Below, one piece after another: positions 98 to 14,323 of a DNA stretch of 64,000 nucleotides. The position numbers and the translations under genes are program-made. The notes below the pieces were generated by a model. It saw only the letters and a program-made list of their open reading frames with translations. It did not search any database and had not been told where the DNA came from. Source of the DNA: an uncultured Methanoregulaceae archaeon (GTDB lineage Archaea > Halobacteriota > Methanomicrobia > Methanomicrobiales > Methanospirillaceae); assembly GCA_963737635.1 (NCBI GenBank), contig CAVTTL010000001.1, positions 2,016,001 to 2,080,000 on the forward strand, written 5' to 3'. Each line of letters opens with the position of its first letter. The first letter of the stretch is position 1.

Positions 98-2320
98 ATG
101 TATACTGTCCTCTACGTCGACGATGAACCTGGTCTTCTTGAGATCGGAAAACTCTTTCTGGAACAGAACGGACAGTTCACGGTTGACGTCATTACCAATG
201 CGCCCGCCGCCCTGTCTCTCCTGCAGTCAACAACCTACGATGCGATAATTTCCGATTACCTGATGCCGGACATGGACGGCATTGAATTTCTCAAACAGGT
301 CAGAGGTTCCGGCAATACCATTCCGTTCATTCTCTTTACCGGCCGTGGCAGGGAGGAGATTGTCATCCAGGCCCTGAATGAAGGTGCCGATTTCTACCTT
401 CAGAAAGGCGGGGAACCTGTCTCCCAGTTTACCGAGCTTGCGTACAAAGTTCAACGGGCAATACAACGAAAGAGAGCCGAGATAAGCATCCGTAACCATG
501 AACGCCGGGAACAGGATATCATCAACTTCCTTCCCGATGCAACGATTGCCATTGACAAAAACGGAATCGTCATCGCGTGGAACCGGGCAATCGAAGAGAT
601 GACCGGCATACCTGTTAGTCAGATGCTGGGGAAGGGGAATTACGAGTATGCACTCCCCTTCTACGGAGAACGCCGGCCGATCTTGATTGATCTGATCTTC
701 GCACCTCCCGAAGAGATCAAAGAGAGATATTCACATATTGTCCGGACCGGCGCAATGCTTGCTGCTGAAACCACTCTCCCGCGCCTGGGGGGAGAGACAA
801 AAACACTGTGGGGAAAGGCAAGCCCGCTGTACGACCAGAAGGGGGAGATTGTCGGAGCAATCGAGTCAATCCGGGACATTACCGAACGCAGGCGGGCGGA
901 GGAGGCGTTGCGCGAAAGCGAGGAGAAATACCGGGCATTCTTTTCCACAACGCGGGATTGTGTTTTTATCACGTCAAAAGACGGCATCGTCGTCGACTTC
1001 AACGATGCAGCAGTCGGTGCCATAGGCTATGAAAGCAGGGAAGACCTTGCACGGGTCACGGTAAATGATCTCTATGCAAATCCTGAGGAACGGGAAGTGT
1101 TTGTCCGGACCGTATGCGGGCAGGGGTTCGTGAAAGATTATCCGATTGACCTGAAAAAAAAGGATGGGAGTATCCTTCGTACCGTGATTTCAGCCGTCGC
1201 GCGAAAGGATGCCGAGGGTAACCTTGTCGGGTTCCAGGGCATTATCCATGACATTACCGCACAGAAGCAGATTGAACGGGATCTCCGGTCCGCACAGGAA
1301 AAACTGACCGAAGCGCACCACCTTGCCCATATCGGCGTATGGGAGTGGTCGCTGGAGACGAATACCGGGATCTGCTCCGATGAACTCTGCAGGATCATGG
1401 GATGGGATACTGCGAAACCCGCACCCCCTCTCGCTGAACTTGCACGGTATTTTACTCCTGAAAGCTGGGATCACCTGCGGAATGCAGCCGAAAAGGTTTT
1501 AGCCACCGGAGAGCCCTACAACCTTGAACTGGAAGTGGTCCGGCCCGATGGCAGCAGGATATGGACCTCTGTCTTTGGGGGTGTTAAACGAGACAGTCAG
1601 GGAAAGATTGTCCAGATGCACGGCATCGTGCAGGATATCACCGGGCGTAAGATGATGGAAGACGCGATCAGGGAAGCGAACAGGAAACTCAACCTTCTTT
1701 CCGGCATCACCCGCCATGATATCCAGAACCAGCTTCTGACCCTCAGGAGTTATCTGGCCCTCTCCCGTAATCAGATCCAAGACCCGGTGGTTCTTGGATA
1801 CCAACAAAAAGAAGAGAAGATTCTAGAAACAATAGAGCACCAGATCGCATTCACCCGGGATTACCAGAATATGGGAATACGATCGGCGACATGGCAGAAC
1901 GTAAACGCAAGTGTCATGCGTGCAACCTCGCAGCTGCCTATGCGCGATGTCCGGGTACAGGTCGACCGGAAGGATTTCGAAATCCTTGCCGATCCGCTCT
2001 TCGAGAAGGTATTCTACAACCTCATCGATAATGCGCTCAGGTATGGAGGCGATCGGATGACCGCCATCCATGTATCAGCGCAGGAATCTGATGGCGGCAT
2101 AGTACTCATCTGCGAGGATGACGGGGCCGGTATCTCCCCGAAAGATAAAAAGCACCTTTTTACCAAAGGTTTTGGGAAAAATACCGGGTTCGGCCTGTTC
2201 CTGTGCCGCGAGATCCTGTCAATTACCGGTATTGCTATAGCTGAGAACGGCCTGACCGGAAAGGGCGCCCGGTTCGAAATGATCGTCCCAAAAGAAAAAT
2301 ATCGGTTTAGCTCCCGGTAG
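98..2320 (+). CDS. Hybrid sensor histidine kinase (REC-PAS/PAC x3-HisKA-HATPase)
   Basis: N-terminal receiver (VDDE...SDYLMP...YLQKG), repeated PAS/PAC ends (RDITERR, HDITAQK, QDITGRK), H-box RHDIQN, N-box NLIDNALRYG, G-boxes DDGAGI and GFGLFL. Confidence 0.93.
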   Translation: MYTVLYVDDEPGLLEIGKLFLEQNGQFTVDVITNAPAALSLLQSTTYDAIISDYLMPDMDGIEFLKQVRGSGNTIPFILFTGRGREEIVIQALNEGADFYLQKGGEPVSQFTELAYKVQRAIQRKRAEISIRNHERREQDIINFLPDATIAIDKNGIVIAWNRAIEEMTGIPVSQMLGKGNYEYALPFYGERRPILIDLIFAPPEEIKERYSHIVRTGAMLAAETTLPRLGGETKTLWGKASPLYDQKGEIVGAIESIRDITERRRAEEALRESEEKYRAFFSTTRDCVFITSKDGIVVDFNDAAVGAIGYESREDLARVTVNDLYANPEEREVFVRTVCGQGFVKDYPIDLKKKDGSILRTVISAVARKDAEGNLVGFQGIIHDITAQKQIERDLRSAQEKLTEAHHLAHIGVWEWSLETNTGICSDELCRIMGWDTAKPAPPLAELARYFTPESWDHLRNAAEKVLATGEPYNLELEVVRPDGSRIWTSVFGGVKRDSQGKIVQMHGIVQDITGRKMMEDAIREANRKLNLLSGITRHDIQNQLLTLRSYLALSRNQIQDPVVLGYQQKEEKILETIEHQIAFTRDYQNMGIRSATWQNVNASVMRATSQLPMRDVRVQVDRKDFEILADPLFEKVFYNLIDNALRYGGDRMTAIHVSAQESDGGIVLICEDDGAGISPKDKKHLFTKGFGKNTGFGLFLCREILSITGIAIAENGLTGKGARFEMIVPKEKYRFSSR

Positions 2321-2375: not shown

Positions 2376-2894
2376 TCAGGTTTTTTTCCCTGCGTTTCGC
2401 ATCAGGACAAGCAGGCCGGTGAGGATCTGGAGTGGAGTGGGGGGGGTTCCGGGGATCTTGAGATCAACCGGTAGGATTTTGTCTGCCCCGCCAAGGACCG
2501 CGTACGTCCCGGTATAGATCCCGCCATTGCAGGCATCATCCCCGACAGCTACAACGAATTTGGGAGACGGCATCGCATCGTAAGTCTTTTTTACGGCGGT
2601 AGCCATATTGTGCGTGATCGCGCCGGTCACGATTAAGACATCGGCATGCCGGGGTGAAGCAACGAACGTGATGCCAAACCGCTCTACATCGTAGAATGCA
2701 TTGCTGAGATTATTTACTTCGATCTCGGCAGCATTGTCGCTGCCAGCATCCAGTTCACGGACGGCAAGGCTCCGCCCGAACCGCGTATCGATCTCCTGTT
2801 TTATCTCGCGGCCGAGTCTTTCCATTTCATCTTCCGGTAACGGAAGCGAACCGGTCACTTTCTTTTTTATCAGACAGGAAAATGCATTGACCAT
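2376..2894 (-). CDS. Ehr/Hyf-like small subunit (NuoB/HycG family) lacking the canonical Fe-S cysteines
   Basis: NuoB-family motifs DVERFGITFVASPRHADVLIVTG and PSPKFVVAVG; Cys positions read GSDNAAE, GDDAC and IPGTPP. Confidence 0.88.
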   Translation of the reverse strand: MVNAFSCLIKKKVTGSLPLPEDEMERLGREIKQEIDTRFGRSLAVRELDAGSDNAAEIEVNNLSNAFYDVERFGITFVASPRHADVLIVTGAITHNMATAVKKTYDAMPSPKFVVAVGDDACNGGIYTGTYAVLGGADKILPVDLKIPGTPPTPLQILTGLLVLMRNAGKKT

Positions 2895-2905
2895 CGCGTT
2901 TCACC

Positions 2906-4498
2906 TCATAGGTCTGTCCCGGCGTACGACAGATTCAGGCTCTTGTTGATAACCGGGAAATCGGCAATGATATTGCCGGGTACTGCATGCTCAAGGGTGA
3001 GCCAGTTGCAGTATGAAGCTGTTCTCACCTTGTAACGGCTGATTTTTCCACCCTGTACCTCCACCCAGCAGAGGTTCTGCCCCCGCGGGGACTCTACAAG
3101 CGCGAGCGCACAGCCATCTCGGACAGGTTCGTCGCTGCACATCTGCCCGTCAGGGATAGCGGCGATAACCTGTTCGATCAAGTCGAGTGCATCTAGGATC
3201 TCCGCTGCTTTTACCGTGAACCTGGCAAGGACATCGCCATCGGCCAGGGGCATGAGCGTAGGAACGAAGCGGTCATAAATCCCGTACGGATGGTCCACCC
3301 GAACATCCATCTCGCCACCGGAAGCACGAGCAACCGGGCCGGTGATATTGAGGGGGGCAAGCAGCGGTTTTTTGATGATCCCGGTCTGCGCGAACCGGTC
3401 GATCACCGAGGTTGTCGAGAGCACGATGGAAAGCCCGGTCCTGAACTGTTTTTTGAACCGTCTAAGATAATTCTTAAAACCGGTTAGGGTTACGGCCGGG
3501 ATATCCCGCGTGACCCCGCCCGGACAGATCATTCCCCGTAGGAACCGGGAGCCGGAAAGCTTCGCGTTCTCGCGCAACATCTCCTCGCGCAACACGGCAA
3601 ACTGGCTGGCACCAAGAGCAAATGCGACGTCGGTCAGCATGCCTGCCAGATCGCCGAGGTGGGAACAGATCCTTTCGGACTCGCAGAGGACCGTCCGGAT
3701 GTGCCAAGCGCGTTCAGGCACGGTGATCCCGGAGAGTCGTTCGACTGCCATGCAAAACCCCGTCGCATTTGCCGCTGATTCGTCTCCGCTGACCGCTTCT
3801 GCGATCTTCGTGCAGTCCATTGGAGCCTTCCCTTCTGCCAGTTTCTCGATCCCCCGGTGAGTATAGAACAGGCGGACCTCGAGGTTGAAGACCGTCTCCC
3901 CGATCACGCTGAACCGGAAGTGACCGGGCTCGATGATGCCGGCATGGACCGGCCCGACCGGGACCTGATAGACGCCGTCGCCGCTCACGTTCCGGAACTG
4001 GTAGAAATCAGACGCGTTGATCGTTTTTACCGGGGTAACTGGCGCATTGGCGCATCCCTTTTCCAGCGGGTGAAACATATCAGGATATTCCTCATGCAGG
4101 ACGAGTCGCCGGGTGTCAAACGCGCCGTCGAATTCGATCCCGAACATGTCCCGGCATTCCCGTTCCGGCCATGTAGCCGAAGGAAAGACCGCGGCAATGG
4201 AGGTCGCCTGTTTTCCGGTAATATTCCGGACAAGGACGAGGATGCTGTCGTGGTGTTCGAAAACATACCGGAGCACATGCTCTTCGCCGCCAGTACCTTC
4301 AGAACAAAACAATCCGATCAGGACCCATTTCTGTGCAGTAAGAATGGGGATGGCTTGGCCAAATTCCTGTTTATTGACGTTGACGGAATACTCCCCGCTG
4401 CATCCATACGTAATCCGGGCTGGCGTAGCGGCACTACCAAAAATTTCCCGGACTGCTGCAGTGGCGGCATCTTCCCCGGTGATTTCAGTCTGGGTCAT
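2906..4498 (-). CDS. Ehr/HycE-like large subunit (NuoC+NuoD fusion) without NiFe ligands
   Basis: WPERECRDMFGI, GPVHAGIIEPGHFRF, FYTHRGIEKLAEG, ESPRG; the N-terminal CxxC is replaced by VSGD and the C-terminal by NLSYAGTDL. Confidence 0.92.
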   Translation of the reverse strand: MTQTEITGEDAATAAVREIFGSAATPARITYGCSGEYSVNVNKQEFGQAIPILTAQKWVLIGLFCSEGTGGEEHVLRYVFEHHDSILVLVRNITGKQATSIAAVFPSATWPERECRDMFGIEFDGAFDTRRLVLHEEYPDMFHPLEKGCANAPVTPVKTINASDFYQFRNVSGDGVYQVPVGPVHAGIIEPGHFRFSVIGETVFNLEVRLFYTHRGIEKLAEGKAPMDCTKIAEAVSGDESAANATGFCMAVERLSGITVPERAWHIRTVLCESERICSHLGDLAGMLTDVAFALGASQFAVLREEMLRENAKLSGSRFLRGMICPGGVTRDIPAVTLTGFKNYLRRFKKQFRTGLSIVLSTTSVIDRFAQTGIIKKPLLAPLNITGPVARASGGEMDVRVDHPYGIYDRFVPTLMPLADGDVLARFTVKAAEILDALDLIEQVIAAIPDGQMCSDEPVRDGCALALVESPRGQNLCWVEVQGGKISRYKVRTASYCNWLTLEHAVPGNIIADFPVINKSLNLSYAGTDL

Positions 4499-5979
4499 CA
4501 GAACCTCAACTCCGTAACTATCTGGGAGAGAAAAGCAGATCCTCCGGCAGGGAACATAAGCCCGAGTACAAGAACGAGGGCAAGCAGGATCACAATCGGG
4601 ATCTGCATGGAGAGCGGTGTCCGGTAAGGAACTAGTTCAGGGTTTTCGTCCGGTGGTGTGGTGCGGGTAAACATGCTGATAACGAAGTTCCCGAGGGCGG
4701 CAGCGGCTATCAAGATGAGGATGAGGACAACCGTAAGCACCCAGAGTGAAAGCGATCCGAGAGAGAGCAGGATGAGGAATTTTGAGAAAAAGGCCATAAA
4801 GGGTGGCATACCGATGATCGCGAGCCCTCCGAGGATGATCCCCCATGCCGCGAACGGCTGGAACCGGAACACGTCGTGGATGTCATCAGGGGCATCGGCA
4901 GAAATATGACTCCGGTATTGCCGGTGCAGGATACCGGCTGAGAAGAAGAGCGAGGCTTTCGTGAGGGCGTGCGCGATAACCTGGAAAAGTACCCAGAAGA
5001 TCGCAACCGGTGTAGCGACAGCAATGCCAACCAGGATGATACCCATGTTCTCGATACTTGAAAATGCGATTAGTTTCTTGAGATTCTTTTCAGGCAGCAT
5101 GGAGAACGCGGCAATGGCAATCGAGAAGATGCCAAAGAGCAGGATTGCCGGGGCAACTACGGCCGAAGCATCAGTCTGGTGGACAATGGCAAATACCCGG
5201 ATTATACCGTAGATCCCTATGTTCAGGAGCACTCCTGAGAGGACTGCACTCACCGCAGAGGGCGCCTTGGCATGGGCCTCGGGAAGCCATGTATGGAACG
5301 GGAAGATGCCGGACTTTGCGGCAAACCCGATAAAGATGAACATAAAGGCGGCGATCATCATTACAGGGGGGAATGCAGAGGCATGCTGCATCAGGGCTGT
5401 CCAGTTGAGGGTACCGTCGCCAAGCGTGGAACGAGAGATTTCAAAGAGGAAGATAAGCCCGACAAAGGCGAAGATCATAGCCACCGATGCAACGAAGATG
5501 TACTTGAGCGCCGCGTCGATATTCTCCTTCGCCGAGAGTATCGCGATAAGCATCGCCGATATGATCGTTGTCATCTCAGCAAAGATCCAGAAGAGCGCCA
5601 GATTGTCCGAGAAAAAAGCAAGAACAATGACCAGTTCGAGCAGGCACCACGCGGCATAGAAGAGCTTCAGGCTCCCCTGTTCCAGCTCCCTGTTTGCAAG
5701 CAGATTGCTGATATAGCCCCGGGCATACACGGCAGCGAGTAAGAAAATGAAGGTTGCAACCAGCACTTCCAAGAGGCCGAGGTGGTCGATGAAAAAGTAC
5801 CCGCTGCCTACAATGAAAGTGTTGACAGGGATTTGCACGAACAGGAGAATGTACAGGGTGATCGCTAAGTAAATGATCCCCTGCCCGGCGGCGGCCGCAT
5901 TCATCTGCTGGTTTGTGTGGCTGAGGGCGACAAGAATGATCGCAACGAGGGCGCAGGCCACAAAGGCGATGAGAATCAT
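4498..5979 (-). CDS. HyfF-like proton-conducting membrane subunit (NuoM/MrpD family)
   Basis: Polytopic membrane protein with KSGIFPFHTWLPEAHAKAPS, KKLIAFSSIENMG and HALTKASLF. Confidence 0.9.
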   Translation of the reverse strand: MILIAFVACALVAIILVALSHTNQQMNAAAAGQGIIYLAITLYILLFVQIPVNTFIVGSGYFFIDHLGLLEVLVATFIFLLAAVYARGYISNLLANRELEQGSLKLFYAAWCLLELVIVLAFFSDNLALFWIFAEMTTIISAMLIAILSAKENIDAALKYIFVASVAMIFAFVGLIFLFEISRSTLGDGTLNWTALMQHASAFPPVMMIAAFMFIFIGFAAKSGIFPFHTWLPEAHAKAPSAVSAVLSGVLLNIGIYGIIRVFAIVHQTDASAVVAPAILLFGIFSIAIAAFSMLPEKNLKKLIAFSSIENMGIILVGIAVATPVAIFWVLFQVIAHALTKASLFFSAGILHRQYRSHISADAPDDIHDVFRFQPFAAWGIILGGLAIIGMPPFMAFFSKFLILLSLGSLSLWVLTVVLILILIAAAALGNFVISMFTRTTPPDENPELVPYRTPLSMQIPIVILLALVLVLGLMFPAGGSAFLSQIVTELRF

Positions 5980-6668
5980 GGGGACACCTCCTGCTCTTCC
6001 CAGAGGTAGAACCGGTGGAGCCGGTTATGGTACTCCTCGAGCGTCGAATCAATCCCGACGGTAAGGATGGTCGTCAGGATGATAAGGATGACCAGATCGA
6101 TGACGATCAGGAACTCGATGATGAACGGGAGCTCGGTTACAAAGATGCCAAAGAGGAGGACGCCGTTTTCCATCGAGAGGTATCCCAGCACTTTCGTGAT
6201 CGCCCTTTTCCGTGAGAAGGTCACCATCATGCCCATCAGGACAAGAGAGACCCCAATCACCGCCCCAAAGAAAAAGAGGCTTCCGTTTATCGTTGTATCC
6301 GGGATGATACGGGAGAGGGTGATGTAGACGACGATCATTAGCGCAAGCGAGATCAGAAGCGAACTCGTCGGGCTGAGGAAATGGAAGTCGATATCGCGTT
6401 TTATCCGGATCTTCTCCTGGATGGTCGCAATGAAGTACGGTATCAGGCACACTTTGAAGACCAGCGTGAGGATCGCAATGGCAAGGAGGATCGGCTCATT
6501 CTCGTACCACGCGACGCCAAGAGCGATAATAACGAGAGTAAGCGACTGGAGCGCGTAGACCCTGACCAGACTGATGAGGTTCTTTGTTGTGATGATATAC
6601 GCCGACGTAACGATCACGCAGACGAACAGGATCTTGACGATCCCATCAAAAAATGCAGGGTCGATCAT
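5976..6668 (-). CDS. HyfE-like membrane subunit
   Basis: Hydrophobic, with YALQS and GYLSMENG motifs; position between hyfC-like and hyfF-like genes; ATGA overlaps. Confidence 0.85.
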   Translation of the reverse strand: MIDPAFFDGIVKILFVCVIVTSAYIITTKNLISLVRVYALQSLTLVIIALGVAWYENEPILLAIAILTLVFKVCLIPYFIATIQEKIRIKRDIDFHFLSPTSSLLISLALMIVVYITLSRIIPDTTINGSLFFFGAVIGVSLVLMGMMVTFSRKRAITKVLGYLSMENGVLLFGIFVTELPFIIEFLIVIDLVILIILTTILTVGIDSTLEEYHNRLHRFYLWEEQEVSP

Positions 6669-7606
6669 GCGAACACCTCGATGATGATGATAAGGGTAGA
6701 GAAGAAGAACGCCATCATAAAGAGGCTTGGCAGCCGGAAGAACCGCATCTTTGCCATGGATGACTCAAAGAGCCCCATCACAAGGGCAAGAAGGGCAGCT
6801 TTTCCGATAAAGAGAACAAAGGCGGCGGCAATAGTGGCAGGAGTGAGTGTGGTGGCGATCCCCCATGGGATGATAAGGTTGATGAGCAGTCCCATCAGGA
6901 TTACCTGTTTTATGGCAGACGAGAGTTCGAGGAGTGCAAGATTCCGGCCCGATTGTTCGAGGATCATGCCTTCGTGGATCATGGTCAGCTCGAGATGGGT
7001 CTCCGGGTTATCGACCGGGATGCGTGCGGTCTCAACGATCAGGATAATAAAAAGAGAGATTCCAAGCAATATCAGTACCGGGGTCACCGGGGTACCGGTT
7101 GTAGCCGCCACCGTGGCCATATCGATGATATTGAGGGATTTAAAGACAAATGCGAGTGCGGCAAAGACAATAATCGTAGTTGGTTCGATGACCGCCGCGA
7201 TGCTCATCTCCCGGGAGCTGCCCATACCGCCGAATGTGCTCCCTGCATCGAGGCCGCCCAGCGCCATGAAGAACCGGGCGAGCACCAGCAGGTACAAGAA
7301 GAGGATAATATTTCCGATGCCTCCAGCCGGCTCCGTGACATAGACGAGCGGGACAAAGAGCGAGGCAGTAAGGATGGCAGCGATGCAGACCCACGGTGTA
7401 ATCCTTGTGATCCGGGATGCATTGGGGGAATAGATCACTTCCTTTTTGAGGAGCTTCGCGAGCGTGTAATAGGTCTGGAAAATCGATGGCCCCTGCCGCC
7501 CCTGTGTCCACGCTTTGACCTTCTTTACCAGGCTCACGAAGAGCGGCGCAATAAGAACGACACTGACGGTGTTGATGATACCGTACAGCAGGAACTCCGG
7601 GATCAT
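6665..7606 (-). CDS. HyfC/HycD-like membrane subunit (NuoH family)
   Basis: QGRQGPSIFQ, GGMGSSREM, ETARIPVDNPETHLELTMIHE. Confidence 0.92.
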   Translation of the reverse strand: MIPEFLLYGIINTVSVVLIAPLFVSLVKKVKAWTQGRQGPSIFQTYYTLAKLLKKEVIYSPNASRITRITPWVCIAAILTASLFVPLVYVTEPAGGIGNIILFLYLLVLARFFMALGGLDAGSTFGGMGSSREMSIAAVIEPTTIIVFAALAFVFKSLNIIDMATVAATTGTPVTPVLILLGISLFIILIVETARIPVDNPETHLELTMIHEGMILEQSGRNLALLELSSAIKQVILMGLLINLIIPWGIATTLTPATIAAAFVLFIGKAALLALVMGLFESSMAKMRFFRLPSLFMMAFFFSTLIIIIEVFA

Positions 7607-9552
7607 GCGAGTACCCCCAGGAAGAGGATGACGGCGACCACGGCAAGGAAGACATACAGAAGGTAGGTGTCAAGGCACCCGTTCTGCATGCGGGCAACCA
7701 AACCGGCAGCACGGCACGTTCCCCGTGCAACCGGGAGGTAGAGGTACTCCTCGAAGAACTTTACCAGCCGGATCTCTGCTGTTCCCTCAGCAAAGATGCA
7801 TTCGTGCTGGTCGTAGTATGTTTTGGTGCTCGTCTTTTTGGTCCGGTAGATGGAAGAAAAGATTGTAACAATCGGCTCCGAGAACCCGTGTCCGGTATAC
7901 TCGGTCGAGGAGGGCAGCGACCGCGCACCGCATCCCCAGGTTTCGCTGATCCTGACCTCGTGGGATGCGGTAAAATACAGGACAACGTACGTGAGCGCTG
8001 CCATGAAAAGGAGCAGCATGCTCACGAGAAGAAGGTCGGGGATGGGAAGCACATAGCCGAACGCGGTGAGGATCTGGTACGAGAAGACCCCCAGAATGAC
8101 ACACGCGGCGGCAAGGATGGCCGGGCCGGCAAGCATCGAAAGGCCGACCTCGTGGGCTTCCTCACACTCCGGTGACCGCGACCGGGCGAGGAAGATGGAG
8201 CCAAAGGCCTTCACAAAGCAGGCAGCAGAAAGGGCACTGGTGAGCGCAAAGAGGGCAAGACAGATGAACAGGAGTATTTTTATGAGTGGGTCGACCATGG
8301 AGACGGACTCAAAGAACGCCGTGTAGACCAGCAGTTCGCTGGCAAAACCGTTGAGCGGCGGGAGCGCGGCAATGGCAGCAGCTCCGGTAAAAAAGAGGGC
8401 GGAGGTAACGGGCATCTTGCCGGAAAGGCCGCCCATCTTCTCGATGTCGCGGGTGTGTGTGGCGTGCACTACTGAGCCGGCCGTGAGGAAGAGGAGGCTT
8501 TTGAAGAGCGCATGGTTGAGAGAGTGGAAGAGCGCGGCAAGCAGGCTGATGGTTGCAAGCAGGGGAAGTCCCGCGCAGGAGAAGATTACATACAGACCAA
8601 TGCCCACAAAGATGATGCCGATATTCTCGATGCTTGAGTACGCAAGGAGCCCCTTGATGTCGTCTTCCTTGATTGCGTAGATCACGCCGAGCACAGCCGA
8701 CGCAATACCGGCGATAAGGATCAGGACACCCCACCAGAGATCCGGCGAGAACACCGTGATAATAAACCGGAGGAGACCATAGACGGCGACCTTGAGCATC
8801 ACGCCGGACATGAGCGCCGAGACGGGCGTGGGACTTGCCGGATGGGCGTACGGGAGCCACTTGTGAAACGGAATGATCCCGGCCTTGATGGCAAAGCCGA
8901 TAAAAAGCGAGAGAAACGCGACCGTGACCAGAGGCATCGACACAGCGGGAAGATGCACCGGGGCGATCGCAAACGAACCGGAAGCGACAAAAAGGGCAAT
9001 GATCCCGAGCATTACAAAGAGGGTCGAGAGCTGGGTCATCACGAAATAGAAGATCCCGGCTTTCCGTGTCTCGGCGTGTGTATACTCGTACATCACGAGG
9101 AAAAAGGAGACCACTGCCATAAGCTCCCAGAACACGAGAAACGAGATCGTGTTTTCCGAGGCAACCACAAGCACCATGGCGAGCACGAAGAGACCGATGC
9201 AGCCGCAGAGAAGGTTGCGACGGCTCCCGCCCTCCATATGCTCAACGTACCCGGTGCTGTAGACCGCGACACAGGCTGCAACGATCCCTATGAGGAACAG
9301 GAAGAACGCGGCGAGCCGGTCGATAAAAAATGCTACCGCGATCCCCGGGAAGGGCTGCCAGGCGGTAAAAGCAAGAGACGTGCCGGTGACCAGGATAATG
9401 AGCGAGAGCACCGTAAGAAGCGCCGAGGCAGCCGCAATACAGGCAAGCGAGAGAGTGCGTGAGGTCCGGCTGTCCCGCGTCGCTCCCAAAAGGGCGATGA
9501 CCGCGCCGGCAAGGAAAAAGATGACGACAATCCCAAAGATCAGGCCGAGCAT
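7603..9552 (-). CDS. HyfB/HycC-like antiporter-type membrane subunit
   Basis: FWELM, KAGIIPFHKWLPYAHPASP, LAYSSIENIG, NHALFKSLLF, PPLNGFASE, TWGCG. Confidence 0.92.
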   Translation of the reverse strand: MLGLIFGIVVIFFLAGAVIALLGATRDSRTSRTLSLACIAAASALLTVLSLIILVTGTSLAFTAWQPFPGIAVAFFIDRLAAFFLFLIGIVAACVAVYSTGYVEHMEGGSRRNLLCGCIGLFVLAMVLVVASENTISFLVFWELMAVVSFFLVMYEYTHAETRKAGIFYFVMTQLSTLFVMLGIIALFVASGSFAIAPVHLPAVSMPLVTVAFLSLFIGFAIKAGIIPFHKWLPYAHPASPTPVSALMSGVMLKVAVYGLLRFIITVFSPDLWWGVLILIAGIASAVLGVIYAIKEDDIKGLLAYSSIENIGIIFVGIGLYVIFSCAGLPLLATISLLAALFHSLNHALFKSLLFLTAGSVVHATHTRDIEKMGGLSGKMPVTSALFFTGAAAIAALPPLNGFASELLVYTAFFESVSMVDPLIKILLFICLALFALTSALSAACFVKAFGSIFLARSRSPECEEAHEVGLSMLAGPAILAAACVILGVFSYQILTAFGYVLPIPDLLLVSMLLLFMAALTYVVLYFTASHEVRISETWGCGARSLPSSTEYTGHGFSEPIVTIFSSIYRTKKTSTKTYYDQHECIFAEGTAEIRLVKFFEEYLYLPVARGTCRAAGLVARMQNGCLDTYLLYVFLAVVAVILFLGVLA

Positions 9553-9567
9553 GAAGGCACATCCCCG

Positions 9568-10185
9568 TTATGCATCCCGGTCTCCCGGGAGAGGAGTGGG
9601 GTCGCGCTTCATGGGACAGCTCCCCGAATAATTGGCTGTGCCCTGCCCGGGCCGGATCGTCACCGGAATCTCGGGGGCCGGGACAAAACCCATCTCCCGG
9701 TAGAAGTCAACCAGTTCCGGCTTCGCATGCAGGTACAGCATCTCGTGCCGGCCGCACTCCTCGATCAGCCGTCTCATGACCAGGCGGGCAAATCCCCGGT
9801 GCCGGTACTCTTCGAGGACATAAACGCCGTCTACTTCAAAGCTATCTAGATGCCGGGAACACCGGGCAACACCGACTAACTGGGTACCAGCAAATGCCGC
9901 AAACAGCCGGTCTGTCGCAGTATCTGCTTTCTGCTGGTTATCGTGGATCCAGAGTTCTTCTTCGGCACGACGCATCTCGTGCGCCGGGAGTTCCCTGACC
10001 TCGACGCTGAGCACGGCCGGGTGGTCTATAAACGCGTGCCCAAACGTAAGAAGCTGCTTCCGGATCCGGCGGAAGATGCGTGGTTGCAAGGTGACAAACT
10101 CCCCGCATTCCTCACCTGCAAGCGCATAGAGTGTAAGCAGGGTCGCATCTTCCCCAGTGGGTTCTTGGTGTATTGCTGATGACAA
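9568..10185 (-). CDS. GNAT family N-acetyltransferase (start uncertain)
   Basis: VYVLEEYRHRGFA acetyl-CoA motif and FYREMGF; ends 15 bp upstream of the hyfB-like start. Confidence 0.8.
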   Translation of the reverse strand: MSSAIHQEPTGEDATLLTLYALAGEECGEFVTLQPRIFRRIRKQLLTFGHAFIDHPAVLSVEVRELPAHEMRRAEEELWIHDNQQKADTATDRLFAAFAGTQLVGVARCSRHLDSFEVDGVYVLEEYRHRGFARLVMRRLIEECGRHEMLYLHAKPELVDFYREMGFVPAPEIPVTIRPGQGTANYSGSCPMKRDPTPLPGDRDA

Positions 10186-10407: not shown

Positions 10408-10968
10408 ATGACCATTGAATCTGATGCAGTAAAAGACGTTGCCGGCCTCATGGCGCTTGCCGCCCGGACGGCACCGAAAGCCTGCGGCCTTGACTCGATC
10501 AAGATCGAGATCGTAACCGGGAAAGAACAGAAAGAGCTCGGTGATCTTATGATCGCCGAGGCAAAAACGACCGGCATGGATTTCCTCAGGATCAACGGGG
10601 AACAGGTAAAGGCAAGTGACGCCTCGGTCCTTATCGGGGTCGAAGGTCGAAAGACACTCGGCATCAACTGCGGCGGGTGTGGGTATGCGACCTGCGCAGA
10701 GATGGCAGCAGCGCAGAAAACCAAGAAGAACAAGGGCTCTGCCTATGCGGGCCCGAATTGCGTGCTCAAGATCTCGGATCTGGGTATCGCTGTCGGCTCA
10801 GCCGTCAAGACCGCTGCTATCCACAATGTCGACAACCGGATCATGTTCACCGAAGGTTATGTCGCCCTCAAAGCCGGGTACCTGAAAGGATGCAGCGTTG
10901 CCTACGGGATTCCTCTCCGGGCATCGGGCAAGAGCATCTACTTTGATATCCAGTTCCCCAAGCACTGA
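10408..10968 (+). CDS. Ferredoxin-domain protein (DUF2148 family)
   Basis: AARTAPKA, NCGGCGYATC, GPNC, DLGIAVGSA, VDNRIM. Confidence 0.85.
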   Translation: MTIESDAVKDVAGLMALAARTAPKACGLDSIKIEIVTGKEQKELGDLMIAEAKTTGMDFLRINGEQVKASDASVLIGVEGRKTLGINCGGCGYATCAEMAAAQKTKKNKGSAYAGPNCVLKISDLGIAVGSAVKTAAIHNVDNRIMFTEGYVALKAGYLKGCSVAYGIPLRASGKSIYFDIQFPKH

Positions 10969-11011
10969 TACCATCCTCTTTTATTTTCTTCACGACATGT
11001 ATGCTGATTTT

Positions 11012-11797
11012 TTAGGTAACCATTTCTTTCCATTTCGGGTTCTCCCACATAATATTGAAGGCATTATTGATCGCCTTAGTTACCATATCATTTGCAATCC
11101 AAAGTGCGATCAGGTTTTCGCGGTGTGCTGCTTCCGCTTCAGGAAGAGGGAGCATCATGAGCATTTCCCTGCTATCGATGGTCAGGGTCCGGATGAACGG
11201 TTCCGGAGCGATCTGGATATCGCTTGTCACCTTCGAAAAGGATGCGTACACATCCACGATCTCCTCTTTTATCCGCGCCGGGTTGTTCGACGATATCCGG
11301 ATGATGACCCCCCGCCGCCTGGCGGCACCGATCAGCTGTTTCATCCTTTCAAGCTCCTCCGGGTAATAAAGCGTGCCGAACAAGTAGAGGCTTGTCCGGG
11401 CCCTCTTCATCATATCTGCCGTCTTGACACCGATGTTGTCGATGCCGCGGATGATATGGGCCTCGGGTGGGTCCGCCTCCATGCGTTTCTCATAATGCAT
11501 GGTAAACTCGTCTGCCATCCTGTCGATCTCGGCATCGAATGCGGATTTCCGGTCACCGATTGCCTGGCTGGGACAGACCGGCGATATTTTTGCCGGCCTC
11601 CCTTTCTCGACCCTGATCCAGTCCTGCTTTTCGAGCCTTTTCAGGGTCTCGTAGATCTTTGTCCGGGGAATGCCCGCCTCTTCTGCAAGGGTAAAGGGGG
11701 TGGTGGTACCGATCCGCACCAGCGCTTCGTACGCCTTTGCATCGTAAGTCGTCAGCCCGAGCGTCTGCAGGAGGGCAATAGACTTGGAATCGTTCAT
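11012..11797 (-). CDS. TrmB family transcriptional regulator
   Basis: LGLTTYDAKAY...IPRTKIYETLKRLE wHTH followed by a PLD-like effector domain. Confidence 0.9.
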   Translation of the reverse strand: MNDSKSIALLQTLGLTTYDAKAYEALVRIGTTTPFTLAEEAGIPRTKIYETLKRLEKQDWIRVEKGRPAKISPVCPSQAIGDRKSAFDAEIDRMADEFTMHYEKRMEADPPEAHIIRGIDNIGVKTADMMKRARTSLYLFGTLYYPEELERMKQLIGAARRRGVIIRISSNNPARIKEEIVDVYASFSKVTSDIQIAPEPFIRTLTIDSREMLMMLPLPEAEAAHRENLIALWIANDMVTKAINNAFNIMWENPKWKEMVT

Positions 11798-11889
11798 AAT
11801 AGGTTCTATGACATTTCCCCGTATATAAGTTACAAAAACATTATCCCTCCTGCACGCAATTCACGCGTGTTAACAAAGGAGACCTGCAT

Positions 11890-12327
11890 ATGTCAACTGT
11901 TGAAGAGAACATGCGTCTCATGCAGACGCTGGACGACGCCTGGAATGCACAGGACTGGGCCACCTTCGAAAAACGCCACGCAGCACAGGTCGATGTCTTC
12001 TGGCCGGGGCAGGAAAAACCGACCCATGGCCGGCCGCCCCACAAGGAAGAAGCGATCGCCTTTTTCAAAGCCTTCCCGGACAACAAGGTCGGGAATCGTC
12101 CCTACAAGACCCTGTTCGGGCAGGGAGACTGGACCTGTTCGGTTGCCGACTTTACCGGTACTTTCAAAGGCCCGATGACCGGACCGGATGGAAATGTGAT
12201 CCAGCCGACCGGAAAGAAGTTCAAAGTCGAGTTCTGCACGGTCGCCCACTGGAAGAACGGGGAGATTACCGAAGAGAAACTCTTCTATGACAAGATCCTG
12301 CTGATGCAGCAGATAGGCCTGATGTAA
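11890..12327 (+). CDS. SnoaL-like ester cyclase family protein
   Basis: NTF2-like pattern AFPD...GTFKGP...PTGKKF...GEITEE; AAGGAG RBS. Confidence 0.85.
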   Translation: MSTVEENMRLMQTLDDAWNAQDWATFEKRHAAQVDVFWPGQEKPTHGRPPHKEEAIAFFKAFPDNKVGNRPYKTLFGQGDWTCSVADFTGTFKGPMTGPDGNVIQPTGKKFKVEFCTVAHWKNGEITEEKLFYDKILLMQQIGLM

Positions 12328-12431
12328 AAACAGCAGTCGCGTCAGCCCGGACCCGGGCGAAAGATGAGATACCTATCCGGGGGTATATCTTCGTATGATA
12401 GTTAACCGGTAATCAAGGACATACGCTAACT

Positions 12432-13133
12432 ATGAAAGAACAGACCAGGAAAATACCGGAATCAGCCAGTGATTCCATGAAGATCACAGTGAGCACAAAC
12501 GGCCCGTATATTGTCACGGGCGGCGTCCCGCTCATCCGGATGGAGATCTGCAACGATGACGAGGGTTACTGCCGTACTTGGCGGGAAGTAAAGAGGTATC
12601 CAGTGCAGGAGACCTATGCCCTCTGCCGGTGCGGCCACTCGCAACACAAGCCGTTCTGTGACGGGTCGCACGCAAGGATCGCCTTTAATGGCACCGAAAC
12701 TGCCGGGAATGAACCGTACCTCAAGTACCCGGAGATCATCTCCGGCCCGGAACTGGATCTGCATGATTATGAGGGCCTCTGCGTTCATGCCCGGTTCTGC
12801 ATGAGGGCCGGCGGGATCTGGAACCTTACCAAAGTCTCGGATATCCCAGAGGCGAGGGCTACCGCTATAGAAGAGGCATGCAACTGCCCGTCAGGACGAC
12901 TGGTGATCAGGGACCGGAAGACCGGCACGATCATCGAGCCGGAACTGGAAAAGTCGATTGCCGTTATTGAGTACCCTCCCAAGGGAGAGCATGGCCCGCT
13001 CTGGGTCCGGGGCGGTATACCCGTTGTGTCTGCTGATGGTAAACAGTACATTGTCAGGAACCGGCTCACGCTCTGCCGGTGCGGGAAGTCGGAGAACAAG
13101 CCGTTCTGCGACGGGAGCCATATCGAGCAGTGA
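12432..13133 (+). CDS. Double CDGSH iron-sulfur domain protein with central ferredoxin-like domain
   Basis: LCRCGHSQHKPFCDGSH and LCRCGKSENKPFCDGSH; central CVHARFC...CPSGRL. Confidence 0.92.
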   Translation: MKEQTRKIPESASDSMKITVSTNGPYIVTGGVPLIRMEICNDDEGYCRTWREVKRYPVQETYALCRCGHSQHKPFCDGSHARIAFNGTETAGNEPYLKYPEIISGPELDLHDYEGLCVHARFCMRAGGIWNLTKVSDIPEARATAIEEACNCPSGRLVIRDRKTGTIIEPELEKSIAVIEYPPKGEHGPLWVRGGIPVVSADGKQYIVRNRLTLCRCGKSENKPFCDGSHIEQ

Positions 13134-13176
13134 GAGCGGGCGGACAGAGAACGAGATTAGAGAGGGAATGAAACGT

Positions 13177-13590
13177 ATGAGTTTTGTCGAAGTTGCAAAG
13201 ACAAGCGAGATTCCTGCCGGGACCATGAAACACATTGAAGCCGACGGGAAAGAGATATGTATCGCGAATGTCAGCGGGAAATTCTATGCTATCGGTGACC
13301 GTTGTGGTCACGAGAATGCCAGACTCTCCCGGGGCACCCTCATGGACACTATTGTGACCTGCCCCATGCATTCTTCACAGTTTGACGTAACCACCGGGAA
13401 ACTGATGTCCGGGCCGGTCTTGGAACTTAGTGGGCTCAAGGAAATGTTTACCGGCTGCCCTGAAAAAGTGAAAAAAACGGTGGCGCAAATGTTTGAAGGT
13501 ATTGCCGAAGAGCAGCGCCTGATCAAGACGTACGATCAACCAGTTTATGAAGTGAAGGTCGATGGCAACGACGTGCTTGTCCAACTTTAA
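13177..13590 (+). CDS. Rieske [2Fe-2S] ferredoxin (copy 1)
   Basis: CGH...CPMH Rieske boxes; start set by alignment to copy 2 (MSFVEVAKTSEI). Confidence 0.88.
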   Translation: MSFVEVAKTSEIPAGTMKHIEADGKEICIANVSGKFYAIGDRCGHENARLSRGTLMDTIVTCPMHSSQFDVTTGKLMSGPVLELSGLKEMFTGCPEKVKKTVAQMFEGIAEEQRLIKTYDQPVYEVKVDGNDVLVQL

Positions 13591-13678
13591 ATTTTTGGAT
13601 GTGAAAAAACATGAAAGAAATTATTGGCAAATTAAATGATGTAGCGGAAATCATGAAAAAATCAGCTGGGGTTCAGGT

Positions 13679-14323
13679 ATGACAGGAGAGGAGTGCGTTG
13701 GTTTTCCGGTTCTGGGAGAACCTGCCCCGGATTTTGAAGCAGAAACGACTCAGGGTCCGATCAAACTATCAGACCAGAAGGGGAAATGGGTGGTGCTATT
13801 TTCTCATCCCGCCGATTTCACCCCGGTCTGTACAACCGAATTCATGGCGTTCGCCGCGATTCATGATGAACTTGCAGCGCTCAACGTGAAATTGATCGGG
13901 CTATCTGTCGACAGCGTATCGGCACACCTAGCATGGGTACACAATATCAAGGAAAAGATGGGTGTTGTCATCCCGTTCCCGGTCATTGCTGACCTGAACA
14001 TGAAAGTGGCAAAGAAATACGGTATGATCCACCCGGGCCAGAGCTCGACTACAGCAGTCAGGTGCGTGTTCTTCATCGATGACAAGGGGATCATGCGGGC
14101 GATGATCTACTATCCCCTGCAGAACGGGCGGTTCATGCCAGAAATCGTCAGGCTCGTAAAAGCGCTCCAAACGACCGACAAATACAAGGTGTCGACGCCC
14201 GCCAACTGGCAGCAGGGCGACAAGGTTGTCGTGGCCCCCCCAAAGACCTCGGCCGAGATGGACAAGCGCTTAAGCGAGGGATACGAGTGCAAAGACTGGT
14301 ATCTCTGTTTCAAAAGCATATGA
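13679..14323 (+). CDS. Peroxiredoxin (Prx6/archaeal type)
   Basis: HPADFTPVCTTE; C-terminal ECKDWYLC. Confidence 0.95.
   Translation: MTGEECVGFPVLGEPAPDFEAETTQGPIKLSDQKGKWVVLFSHPADFTPVCTTEFMAFAAIHDELAALNVKLIGLSVDSVSAHLAWVHNIKEKMGVVIPFPVIADLNMKVAKKYGMIHPGQSSTTAVRCVFFIDDKGIMRAMIYYPLQNGRFMPEIVRLVKALQTTDKYKVSTPANWQQGDKVVVAPPKTSAEMDKRLSEGYECKDWYLCFKSI

What the first reader, a model, noticed from the sequence alone, without database searches (positions are those of the whole stretch)
2376..9552. Complex-I-related Ehr complex that appears to have lost all redox cofactors
Seen: in the NuoB/HycG-family small subunit all four canonical [4Fe-4S] (N2) ligands are replaced. GSCxxCE reads GSDNAAE, GxCA reads GDDA and PGCPP reads PGTPP. 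Only two Cys remain in the protein, one two residues after the third site. The large subunit lacks both NiFe CxxC motifs, and no NuoI/HycF ferredoxin subunit is in the operon. The surrounding motifs and all six ORFs are intact. Known: Ehr complexes lack NiFe ligands but are normally described as keeping the small-subunit cluster. Inference: four independent, mostly multi-base codon changes (two to Asp) look selected, not like decay or read error. The machine may be a non-redox ion/solute transporter, or may use an Asp-ligated metal site.
Basis: partly seen in the sequence, partly recalled or inferred. Interest (0 to 1): 0.8.

Follow-up and report, generated by a model that had tools for sequence, protein, structure and literature searches.

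The report
Cofactor-free complex-I-like Ehr membrane complex
A methanogen carries a six-gene relative of respiratory complex I and membrane hydrogenases that has lost every known metal-centre binding site yet is tightly conserved, so it probably moves ions without electron transfer; the family is already named, but its function is untested.

Summary
Window 9552-2376 (minus strand) holds six overlapping genes in the order ehrABCDLS, from a Methanoregula genome.

The NuoB-like subunit has D53, A56, D120 and T150 where the four N2-cluster cysteines sit. The NuoCD/HycE-like subunit has S, E, S, G in place of the four NiFe cysteines. No ferredoxin subunit is present.

This is not decay or sequencing error:
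- All 120 close homologues lack the cysteines.
- Contigs from three other studies match with no differences.
- dN/dS is 0.06-0.17 for all six genes.
- The charged residues of the membrane ion path are kept.

In a biased sample of 80 Ehr loci, none of 79 readable large subunits keeps a NiFe cysteine. Sixty small subunits keep all four cluster cysteines and 20 do not. On the large-subunit tree the cluster was lost at least two to three times.

The window belongs to a well-supported cluster-less clade: Methanomicrobiales, Methanosarcina, Dehalococcoidia and Moduliflexus.

The family is published, including M. hungatei ehrABCDLS. I found no accessible paper noting the cluster-less small subunit. 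This scan has reported the same thing before on other DNA (CPR, DPANN).

The most likely function is non-redox ion translocation, which is inferred, not shown.

The parts
7603..9552 (-). ehrA: NuoL/HyfB/HycC-like antiporter-like subunit, 649 aa
   Evidence: Pfam Proton_antipo_M 8.1e-59 and Proton_antipo_N. NCBIfam PRK08667 'hydrogenase membrane subunit' 970 bits. Best PDB match HycC 7z0s_C, 2.8e-68. The TM5 Glu, TM7 Lys, TM8 Lys and TM12 Glu motifs are kept in the alignment.
6665..7606 (-). ehrB: NuoH/HycD-like subunit, 313 aa
   Evidence: Pfam NADHdh 2.5e-35. Best PDB match HycD 7z0s_D, 5.4e-40. The acidic stretch vEtaripvDnpEthlEltmihEgmilEqsG aligns with the HycD loop.
5976..6668 (-). ehrC: HyfE-like small membrane subunit, 230 aa
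   Evidence: No Pfam hit. NCBIfam PRK11492 'hydrogenase 4 membrane subunit' 8.3e-17, below its cut-off. Present in synteny in 13 of 13 untruncated orthologous loci.
4498..5979 (-). ehrD: HyfF/NuoM/N-like antiporter-like subunit, 493 aa
   Evidence: Pfam Proton_antipo_M 3.3e-50. NCBIfam PRK08676 706.9 bits. Best PDB match MbhH 6cfw_H, 7e-37. TM5 Glu, TM7 Lys and TM12 Lys are kept; the TM8 Lys position reads Asn.
2906..4498 (-). ehrL: fused NuoC + NuoD/HycE-like large subunit, 530 aa, without NiFe ligands
   Evidence: Pfam Complex1_49kDa 5.8e-39 and Complex1_30kDa 1.4e-15. Best PDB match HycE 7z0s_E, 3e-71. The four NiFe Cys positions read S237 (3788-3790), E240 (3779-3781), S524 (2927-2929) and G527 (2918-2920). 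These four are invariant in 15 of 15 Methanomicrobiales orthologues.
2376..2894 (-). ehrS: NuoB/HycG-like small subunit, 172 aa, without [4Fe-4S] ligands
   Evidence: Pfam Oxidored_q6 2.1e-26. Best PDB match NDUFS7, 6e-31. The cluster sites read D53 (2736-2738), A56 (2727-2729), D120 (2535-2537) and T150 (2445-2447); C122 is at 2529-2531. In 120 close homologues: D53 120/120, D120 118/120, C122 120/120, site 4 N 117 and T 3.
9568..10185 (-). GNAT acetyltransferase gene 15 bases upstream on the same strand; possibly co-transcribed, not a core part
   Evidence: Pfam Acetyltransf_1 6.2e-12. Adjacent to the operon in the window and in L034, L035, L039-L043 and L048. In G081 and G119 the full-length orthologue lies about 200 kb from the operon.

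Best explanation
This is an Ehr (energy-converting-hydrogenase-related) complex of a Methanoregula. It belongs to a subclade that has lost the NiFe site, the proximal [4Fe-4S] cluster and the ferredoxin subunit.

Shown: six translationally coupled genes encode two Mrp/NuoL-type antiporter-like subunits, a NuoH-like subunit, a HyfE-like subunit, a NuoC-NuoD fusion and a NuoB homologue. All canonical cofactor ligands are replaced. All six genes are under purifying selection. The charged residues of the membrane ion path are retained.

Inferred: the proteins assemble like formate hydrogenlyase or MBH without the electron-input branch. The complex works as a secondary, non-redox ion translocator, either Na+/H+ or H+-coupled and Mrp-like. 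The cofactor-less L/S/NuoC cap serves as a structural plug or gate on the NuoH-like channel. The conserved carboxylates (S: D53, D/E120; L: E240) may replace the cluster structurally or bind a cation or proton.
For: - Family assignments and absence of Fer4 domains.
- Ligand replacement checked against solved HycE/HycG/NDUFS7.
- Cys-less state in 120 of 120 close homologues and in all 15 operons found in 121 Methanomicrobiales genomes.
- Same gene order in 13 of 13 untruncated loci.
- NG86 dN/dS of the window against its four closest orthologues: S 0.056-0.104, L 0.10-0.17, A 0.087-0.142, B 0.060-0.112, C 0.065-0.156, D 0.079-0.146.
- TM5 Glu, TM7 Lys and TM12 Lys/Glu motifs and the NuoH-like acidic loop are kept.
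- Identical sequence in contigs from other studies.
- Neighbours of 20 cluster-less loci from other taxa are ion-related and never a recurrent FeS or flavin partner. F-type ATP synthase genes sit beside 4, Na+/H+ exchanger PF00999 beside 3 and carbonic anhydrase beside 2.
- In this genome the only Proton_antipo_M genes are the two in this operon and one Ech-like locus, so no separate Mrp was found (genome 90% complete).
Against: - No functional data exist for any Ehr.
- No RNA run holding the locus was listed, so expression here is unshown.
- The ion-path argument rests on motif alignments. The assignment of those motifs to TM5/7/8/12 is recalled from complex I literature, not computed here.
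- In EhrD the TM8 Lys position is Asn.
- The genome already has NhaP-type exchangers, two PF00999 loci, so a further antiporter is not obviously needed.
- Why a non-redox transporter should keep a conserved 700-residue peripheral cap is unexplained.
- The strong conservation of D53, D/E120, C122 and N150 could mean something still binds at the old cluster site.
- Neighbourhoods are heterogeneous; most loci show no informative neighbour.
Confidence: 0.55

Rival explanations
1. The complex is part of an energy-coupled CO2/bicarbonate or formate/CO2 system. It would use or make an ion gradient together with a carbonic anhydrase, by analogy with the cyanobacterial NDH-1 CO2-uptake complexes or DAB (analogy recalled).
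For: - A beta-carbonic anhydrase (PF00484) lies next to the operon in L035, L044, L046 and L048, that is 4 of the 21 loci of the window's clade.
- L044 and L046 also have a FocA/FdhC-type transporter upstream and FdhB downstream.
- A CsoSCA-like protein lies beside L118.
- Among cluster-keeping Ehr, beta-CA lies beside L094 and SulP beside L077.
- An earlier scan note (e1-2048200) reported the same pattern in CPR.
Against: - No PF00484 match in the window's own genome (90% complete), and none in the window near the operon.
- 17 of 21 clade loci have no adjacent carbonic anhydrase.
- No DabA-like or CupA-like protein is in the operon.
- L044 and L046 are the same genus, so they are not independent.
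Confidence: 0.15
2. The old cluster pocket still binds a metal through non-canonical ligands (D53, D/E120, C122, N150). It would act as a mononuclear or unusual FeS site, for sensing or residual redox chemistry.
For: - These four positions are nearly invariant: D53 120/120, D120 118/120, C122 120/120, N150 117/120 in close homologues.
- The pattern D-x-[DE]-C-N holds in 20 of 21 clade loci from two archaeal orders and two bacterial phyla.
- Positions freed by simple loss would be expected to drift.
Against: - Other cluster-less clades use different residues (T-C-D-D, S/T-E-G-D/N/E), so there is no common ligand set.
- I recall no precedent for a cubane with at most one Cys ligand.
- The window itself has T, not N, at site 4.
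- Conserved Asp/Asn can equally be a hydrogen-bond network that holds the loops the cluster used to hold.
- No electron input subunit exists.
Confidence: 0.07
3. The complex is still a redox enzyme that reduces ferredoxin or couples to a separately encoded partner such as formate dehydrogenase, as the M. hungatei genome paper and the FDH-Ehr proposal assume.
For: - PMC4704411 (passage read) lists ehr among clusters that 'likely reduce Fd'.
- PMC6349859 (passages read) proposes an FDH-Ehr complex.
- Fdh genes lie near the operon in L044 and L046.
Against: - No ligand set for any FeS cluster or NiFe site remains in S or L, and there is no HycF/NuoI-like subunit. No electron path to the membrane interface is therefore visible.
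- No recurrent redox neighbour in 20 cluster-less loci.
- The Tyr that binds quinone in complex I (recalled) aligns to Gly in L (third alignment).
Confidence: 0.08
4. The operon is a decaying relic or an assembly artefact.
For: Loss of all catalytic ligands is what a pseudogenised enzyme would show. The distribution is patchy, 15 of 121 Methanomicrobiales genomes.
Against: - All six frames are intact here and in 13 of 13 untruncated orthologous loci.
- dN/dS is 0.06-0.17.
- Independent assemblies agree.
- 56 of 172 small-subunit columns are invariant over 120 homologues.
Confidence: 0.02

Closest known systems
Ehr (Ech-/energy-converting-hydrogenase-related) complexes, ehrABCDLS: Geobacter sulfurreducens GSU0739-0745 and Methanospirillum hungatei Mhun_1817-1822
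   Same: - Same six-subunit composition and gene order.
- The large subunit lacks the NiFe cysteines, as Anderson 2009 (PMC2686161) noted for Mhun_1817-1822 and for Methanosarcina homologues.
- Orthologues at 57-65% small-subunit identity occur in other Methanomicrobiales families.
- One genus (L044, L046) has the formate transporter/Fdh neighbourhood that PMC4704411 gives for M. hungatei (Mhun_1811, 1813-1814 beside 1817-1822).
- Ehr subunits were detected in a Geobacter proteome (PMC8691401, passage read).
   Different: - The papers I could read describe only the large-subunit loss. None mentions that the small subunit has also lost its cluster, and one still assumes ferredoxin reduction.
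- In my sample most Ehr (60 of 80) keep the four small-subunit Cys; the window's clade does not.
- Coppi 2005 and Marreiros 2013, which define Ehr, are not held, so I cannot say what they state about EhrS.
Formate hydrogenlyase / hydrogenase-4 (E. coli Hyc/Hyf; group 4a/4f [NiFe] hydrogenases), PDB 7z0s
   Same: Best solved matches for four subunits: HycE 3e-71, HycC 2.8e-68, HycD 5.4e-40 and HycG 2.2e-30. HyfE- and HyfF-like subunits are also present.
   Different: No NiFe ligands, no proximal cluster ligands, no HycB/HycF ferredoxin subunits and no formate dehydrogenase subunit in the operon.
Mrp multisubunit Na+/H+ antiporter (PDB 7qru, 6z16)
   Same: Redox-free. Built on the same antiporter-like subunits: MrpA 1.5e-51 to EhrA and MrpD 3.8e-27 to EhrD. 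It is the closest known working model for a cofactor-free member of this superfamily.
   Different: - Ehr keeps NuoH-, NuoB-, NuoC- and NuoD-like subunits, which Mrp lacks.
- None of the six ORFs hit MrpE/F/G families.
Respiratory complex I (NuoA-N) and archaeal Fpo
   Same: Homologues of NuoB, C, D, H, L and M/N, with conserved membrane charged motifs.
   Different: No N2 ligands, no NuoI, no NuoEFG or FpoF input module, and no NuoA or NuoJ detected. The quinone-binding Tyr position (recalled) reads Gly.

Membership tests
Ehr complex | Group-4-hydrogenase-like large subunit lacking both NiFe CxxC motifs | tested here: met
   The sites read S237, E240, S524 and G527 against HycE Cys. None of 79 readable related large subunits has a Cys at these sites.
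Ehr complex | Six-gene ehrABCDLS architecture: NuoL-like, NuoH-like, HyfE-like, NuoM/N-like, large and small subunit | tested here: met
   The same order is seen in 13 of 13 untruncated orthologous loci.
Ehr complex | Large subunit groups with named Ehr references, apart from true group 4 hydrogenases and NuoD | tested here: inconclusive
   The large-subunit tree of 90 loci holds only NiFe-less sequences. No named Geobacter or M. hungatei reference and no true hydrogenase outgroup was included. Orthology to M. hungatei ehr is inferred from gene order and neighbourhood (against PMC4704411).
   The sites read D53, A56, D120 and T150. 60 of 80 sampled Ehr loci do keep CCCC. This feature therefore splits the family and does not define it.
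Group 4 [NiFe] hydrogenase | L1 RxCGxCxxxH and L2 DPCxxCxxH/R motifs | tested here: not met
   AVSGDESAAN and NLSYAGTD.
Group 4 [NiFe] hydrogenase | Proximal cluster in the small subunit and a 2x[4Fe-4S] ferredoxin subunit | tested here: not met
Respiratory complex I / Fpo | N2 cluster in NuoB, NuoI, and an electron-input module | tested here: not met
   Only six genes, with no room between them.
Mrp antiporter | MrpA-G set, including MrpE/F/G, without NuoH/B/C/D homologues | tested here: not met
   No MrpE/F/G family hit among the six ORFs; NuoH/B/C/D homologues are present. The rest of the genome was not searched for MrpE/F/G.
DAB / NDH-1 CO2-uptake systems | DabA (beta-CA-like) or CupA/CupS partner beside the antiporter-like subunit | tested here: not met
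   None in the operon. No PF00484 in the genome. DabA and Cup families were not searched genome-wide.

The most novel reading that the evidence does not exclude
Complex-I-type machines have shed their entire electron-transfer apparatus two to three separate times while keeping the whole Q-module scaffold. In this clade the former N2 pocket has been rebuilt into a conserved Asp/Asp(Glu)/Cys/Asn site. That site would bind a cation, a proton or inorganic carbon and gate the membrane arm. The 'coupling' half of complex I would then run on a ligand or an ion gradient instead of redox energy. If true, Ehr would be a natural, redox-free preparation for studying how the peripheral-arm interface drives the antiporter modules.
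Probability: 0.12. Interest if true: 0.8.

Novelty: new member of a known kind. Interest (0 to 1): 0.45.

Why it matters
How events at the NuoB/NuoD/NuoH interface drive ion pumping in complex I is a long-standing open question. A conserved relative that keeps that interface but has no redox centre must be one of two things: a simpler machine such as an antiporter with a cap, or a machine driven by something other than electrons. Either answer is informative.

For methanogen physiology it matters because genome papers still count ehr among ferredoxin-reducing hydrogenases. The sequence gives no visible basis for that. Energy-budget models of Methanoregula, Methanospirillum and Methanosarcina should not assign it H2 or ferredoxin chemistry.

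The cluster-less clade includes Methanosarcina, which is genetically tractable (recalled), so the function is directly testable.

Tried and rejected
- **RNA evidence.** No RNA holder was listed for the locus, so expression could not be examined.
- **Literature.** Ten searches found no accessible paper stating that an Ehr small subunit lacks its cluster ligands. One search was swamped by 'electronic health record' hits. Coppi 2005 and Marreiros 2013 are not held, and supplements are closed. The point may therefore already be in print.
- **The search for related loci with alignment A2.** The 19-sequence alignment had no conserved stretch. I used the 7-sequence alignment A3 instead.
- **Small-subunit tree.** The tree of 130 representatives has only 149 columns and is poorly resolved. 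Its '5 forced changes' mixes in true hydrogenases and truncated sequences, so I rely on the large-subunit tree.
- **GNAT as an obligate seventh subunit: rejected.** GNAT paralogues match in 90 of 121 genomes. In G081 and G119 the full-length orthologue lies far from the operon.
- **C7 as part of a metal site: rejected.** It is conserved only within the window's own family.
- **In-frame TGA in the G070 small subunit.** This is just the normal stop of a 167-aa protein.
- **Bacterial promoter and terminator scans.** At or below shuffle expectation, and not suited to archaea.
Full report
**What is there.**
On the minus strand of window 9552-2376 lie six ORFs that overlap by 1-4 bases or are 11 bases apart. 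Pfam and NCBIfam assign them as follows:

| Gene | Length | Assignment |
|---|---|---|
| ehrA | 649 aa | NuoL/HyfB-like antiporter-like subunit |
| ehrB | 313 aa | NuoH/HycD-like subunit |
| ehrC | 230 aa | HyfE-like membrane protein (below cut-off) |
| ehrD | 493 aa | HyfF/NuoM-like antiporter-like subunit |
| ehrL | 530 aa | NuoC + NuoD/HycE fusion |
| ehrS | 172 aa | NuoB-family protein |

No ORF carries a 4Fe-4S ferredoxin domain, and there is no room for another gene. Source names of near-identical proteins place the organism in Methanoregula.

- Small subunit. Against 150 representatives of the NuoB/HycG family, the motifs GSCNGCE, G(D/A)CA and PGCPP read GSDNAAE, GDDAC and PGTPP. The last two also align directly to GSCA and PGCPP of mitochondrial NDUFS7.
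- Codons. They are GAC, GCC, GAT and ACC, each two bases away from a Cys codon.
- Remaining cysteines. The protein has two, C7 and C122.
- Large subunit. The HycE motifs RVCGICGFAH and DPCYSCTD align to AVSGDESAAN and NLSYAGTD.
- Independent assemblies. Contigs from runs of three other studies cover the small-subunit gene without a single difference, so assembly or read error is excluded.

**Selected, not decaying.**
- All 120 closest database homologues (74-100% identity) lack the cysteines. D53 is found in 120/120, D120 in 118/120, C122 in 120/120, and site 4 is N in 117 and T in 3.
- Among 121 Methanomicrobiales genomes, 15 including the window's own carry an orthologue at 57% identity or more. 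The other 20 matches, at 38-45%, are paralogues.
- I fetched 14 of these loci. The six-gene order is kept in all 13 that are not cut by a contig end.
- Nei-Gojobori dN/dS of the window against its four closest orthologues is 0.056-0.104 for S and 0.10-0.17 for L. It is 0.06-0.16 for the four membrane genes. Synonymous sites are near saturation (dS about 1-2), so these values are rough, but the direction is clear.
- The genome's other PF01058 proteins keep their cysteines: an Ech/Eha-like small subunit and FrhG.

**How wide is the cluster-less state.**
598 of them were confirmed as relatives, and the best 80 were kept. The sample is biased: one of the two search patterns demands the Cys-less GS[DNS]N motif, and the ranking is by likeness to the query.

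In these 80 loci:
- None of the 79 readable large subunits has a Cys at any NiFe position (SSSG 49, STSG 9, SESG 7 and others), so all are Ehr.
- 60 small subunits keep all four cluster Cys. These come from rhizobia and other Alphaproteobacteria, Methylobacter, Methanoperedens, Methanomassiliicoccus, Verrucomicrobia and Omnitrophota.
- 20 small subunits lack at least three of the four. These come from Methanomicrobiales, Methanosarcina(les), Dehalococcoidia, Moduliflexus, several CPR phyla, Bdellovibrionales, Syntrophus and Thermoleophilia.

On a large-subunit tree of 90 loci (quick IQ-TREE, SH-aLRT only, unrooted), the cluster-less rows form three groups among cluster-keeping ones. The tree needs three changes, and starred branches force at least two.

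The window sits in a 21-row cluster-less group with support 100. The group joins Methanomicrobiales, Methanosarcina, Dehalococcoidia and Moduliflexus, and is sister (99) to a cluster-keeping Thermoproteota sequence.

Replacement residues are clade-specific:
- D-[ATP]-[DE]-N plus C122 in the window's clade.
- [TD]-C-D-[DN] in the CPR-type clade.
- [ST]-E-G-[DNE] in a third group.

Two gene orders exist: ABCDLS, and S first.

**Membrane arm.**
Alignments to solved HycC, MbhH, NuoM and HycD give this picture:

| Subunit | Kept | Changed |
|---|---|---|
| EhrA | TM5 Glu, TM7 Lys, TM8 Lys, TM12 Glu motifs | none |
| EhrD | TM5 Glu, TM7 Lys, TM12 Lys | TM8 Lys reads Asn |
| EhrB | acidic loop of HycD/NuoH | none |

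The helix labels are recalled from the complex I literature. The alignments themselves come from the calls.

**Neighbourhood.**
- In the window, a GNAT gene lies 15 bases upstream on the same strand, and a PAS histidine kinase converges downstream.
- The GNAT is adjacent in 8 of 13 Methanomicrobiales loci with upstream sequence, counting the window, and also in L048. Elsewhere its orthologue lies far away, so it is not a core subunit.
- Beta-carbonic anhydrase is adjacent in 4 of 21 clade loci. Two of these also have a formate transporter and FdhB. The window's own genome gave no PF00484 match (90% complete).
- Among 20 cluster-less loci of other taxa, F-type ATP synthase genes abut 4, Na+/H+ exchangers abut 3 and carbonic anhydrases abut 2. 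No FeS or flavin partner recurs.
- Twenty cluster-keeping loci show no recurrent partner either.
- In the window's genome the only Proton_antipo_M genes are the two here and one Ech-like locus. There are two PF00999 loci.

**Interpretation.**
Without NiFe site, proximal cluster or ferredoxin subunit, no electron path is visible. The hydrogenase and ferredoxin-reduction roles assumed in PMC4704411, and the FDH-Ehr electron-transfer idea in PMC6349859 (passages read), have no sequence basis for this clade.

The retained ion-path residues, the purifying selection and the ion-related neighbours elsewhere point to a redox-free ion translocator. Mrp is the closest working analogue, and the L/S/NuoC cap would be kept as a plug or gate.

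This mechanism is inferred, and I give it about 0.55. The rivals are:
- a carbonic-anhydrase-linked CO2/bicarbonate role (0.15);
- a residual non-Cys metal site (0.07);
- hidden redox coupling (0.08);
- decay (0.02, refuted).

The conservation of D53, D/E120, C122 and N150 is unexplained. It keeps the metal or cation-site reading alive.

**Comparison with what is known.**
- The family is Ehr. Anderson 2009 (PMC2686161, passages read) already noted a membrane-hydrogenase-like operon in M. hungatei (Mhun_1817-1822), M. acetivorans and M. mazei whose large subunits lack the NiFe cysteines.
- Gunsalus 2016 (PMC4704411) names that operon ehrABCDLS.
- Jaffe 2020 (PMC7304191) describes a CPR Ehr clade.
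- A Geobacter proteome detects EhrA, C, L and S (PMC8691401).
- None of the passages I read mentions loss of the small-subunit cluster. The two defining papers are not held.
- Earlier notes of this scan reported the same cofactor-free Ehr on other DNA (CPR, DPANN). I re-tested their core claims here on independent loci.

**Verdict.**
It is a member of a known, named family in a widespread cluster-less subclade, not a unique oddity. Interest is moderate: the function is a real open question and is testable in Methanosarcina.

Noticed in passing
window 9568-10185 (-); L034, L035, L039-L043, L048: A GNAT acetyltransferase with a roughly 60-residue N-terminal extension sits directly upstream of ehrA on the same strand in three Methanomicrobiales families. 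In two Methanoregula genomes its full-length orthologue lies about 200 kb away.
   Followed up: partly
L035:3603-4202, L044:12597-13172, L046:4439-5014, L048:1553-2179; L044/L046 flanks: Beta-carbonic anhydrase lies next to the ehr operon in 4 of 21 clade loci. In one genus the operon is embedded between a FocA/FdhC-type formate transporter and FdhB.
   Followed up: partly
window 10408-14323: Upstream of the GNAT lies a run of small redox and stress genes: DUF2148 ferredoxin-domain protein, TrmB regulator, SnoaL-like protein, CDGSH iron-sulfur protein, Rieske-like protein and peroxiredoxin. Other Methanoregula loci (L036, L038, L048) have ferritin-like, glutaredoxin and FTR-like/rubredoxin genes in the same place.
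   Followed up: partly
L048-L054 versus window 2376-2894: The small subunit is 59-68% identical between Methanoregula and Methanosarcina, Dehalococcoidales and Moduliflexus. The large subunits of these form one clade with support 100. This suggests transfer of the whole operon between archaea and bacteria of anoxic habitats.
   Followed up: partly
L048-L127, large subunit: The residues that replace the NiFe cysteines are nearly fixed across all Ehr sampled: Ser at site 1, Ser at site 3 and Gly at site 4 in almost all of 79. This holds whether or not the small subunit keeps its cluster. Site 2 is Glu only in the window's clade.
   Followed up: partly
L086, L089, L109, L118; L089, L113, L121: In CPR and Bdellovibrionales loci the small-subunit gene comes first. 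The operon directly follows F-type ATP synthase gamma/beta/epsilon genes, or sits beside a Na+/H+ exchanger gene.
   Followed up: partly
own genome G000:C1:897847-898703 and 1073349-1074366: The Ech-like antiporter-like subunit gene and one Na+/H+ exchanger gene each match their family in two adjacent pieces with different open frames. This could be a frameshift or an assembly error.
   Followed up: no
window 98-2320 (+): A response-regulator/PAS/histidine-kinase hybrid converges on the end of ehrS. L034 has a 1513-aa relative in the same position.
   Followed up: no
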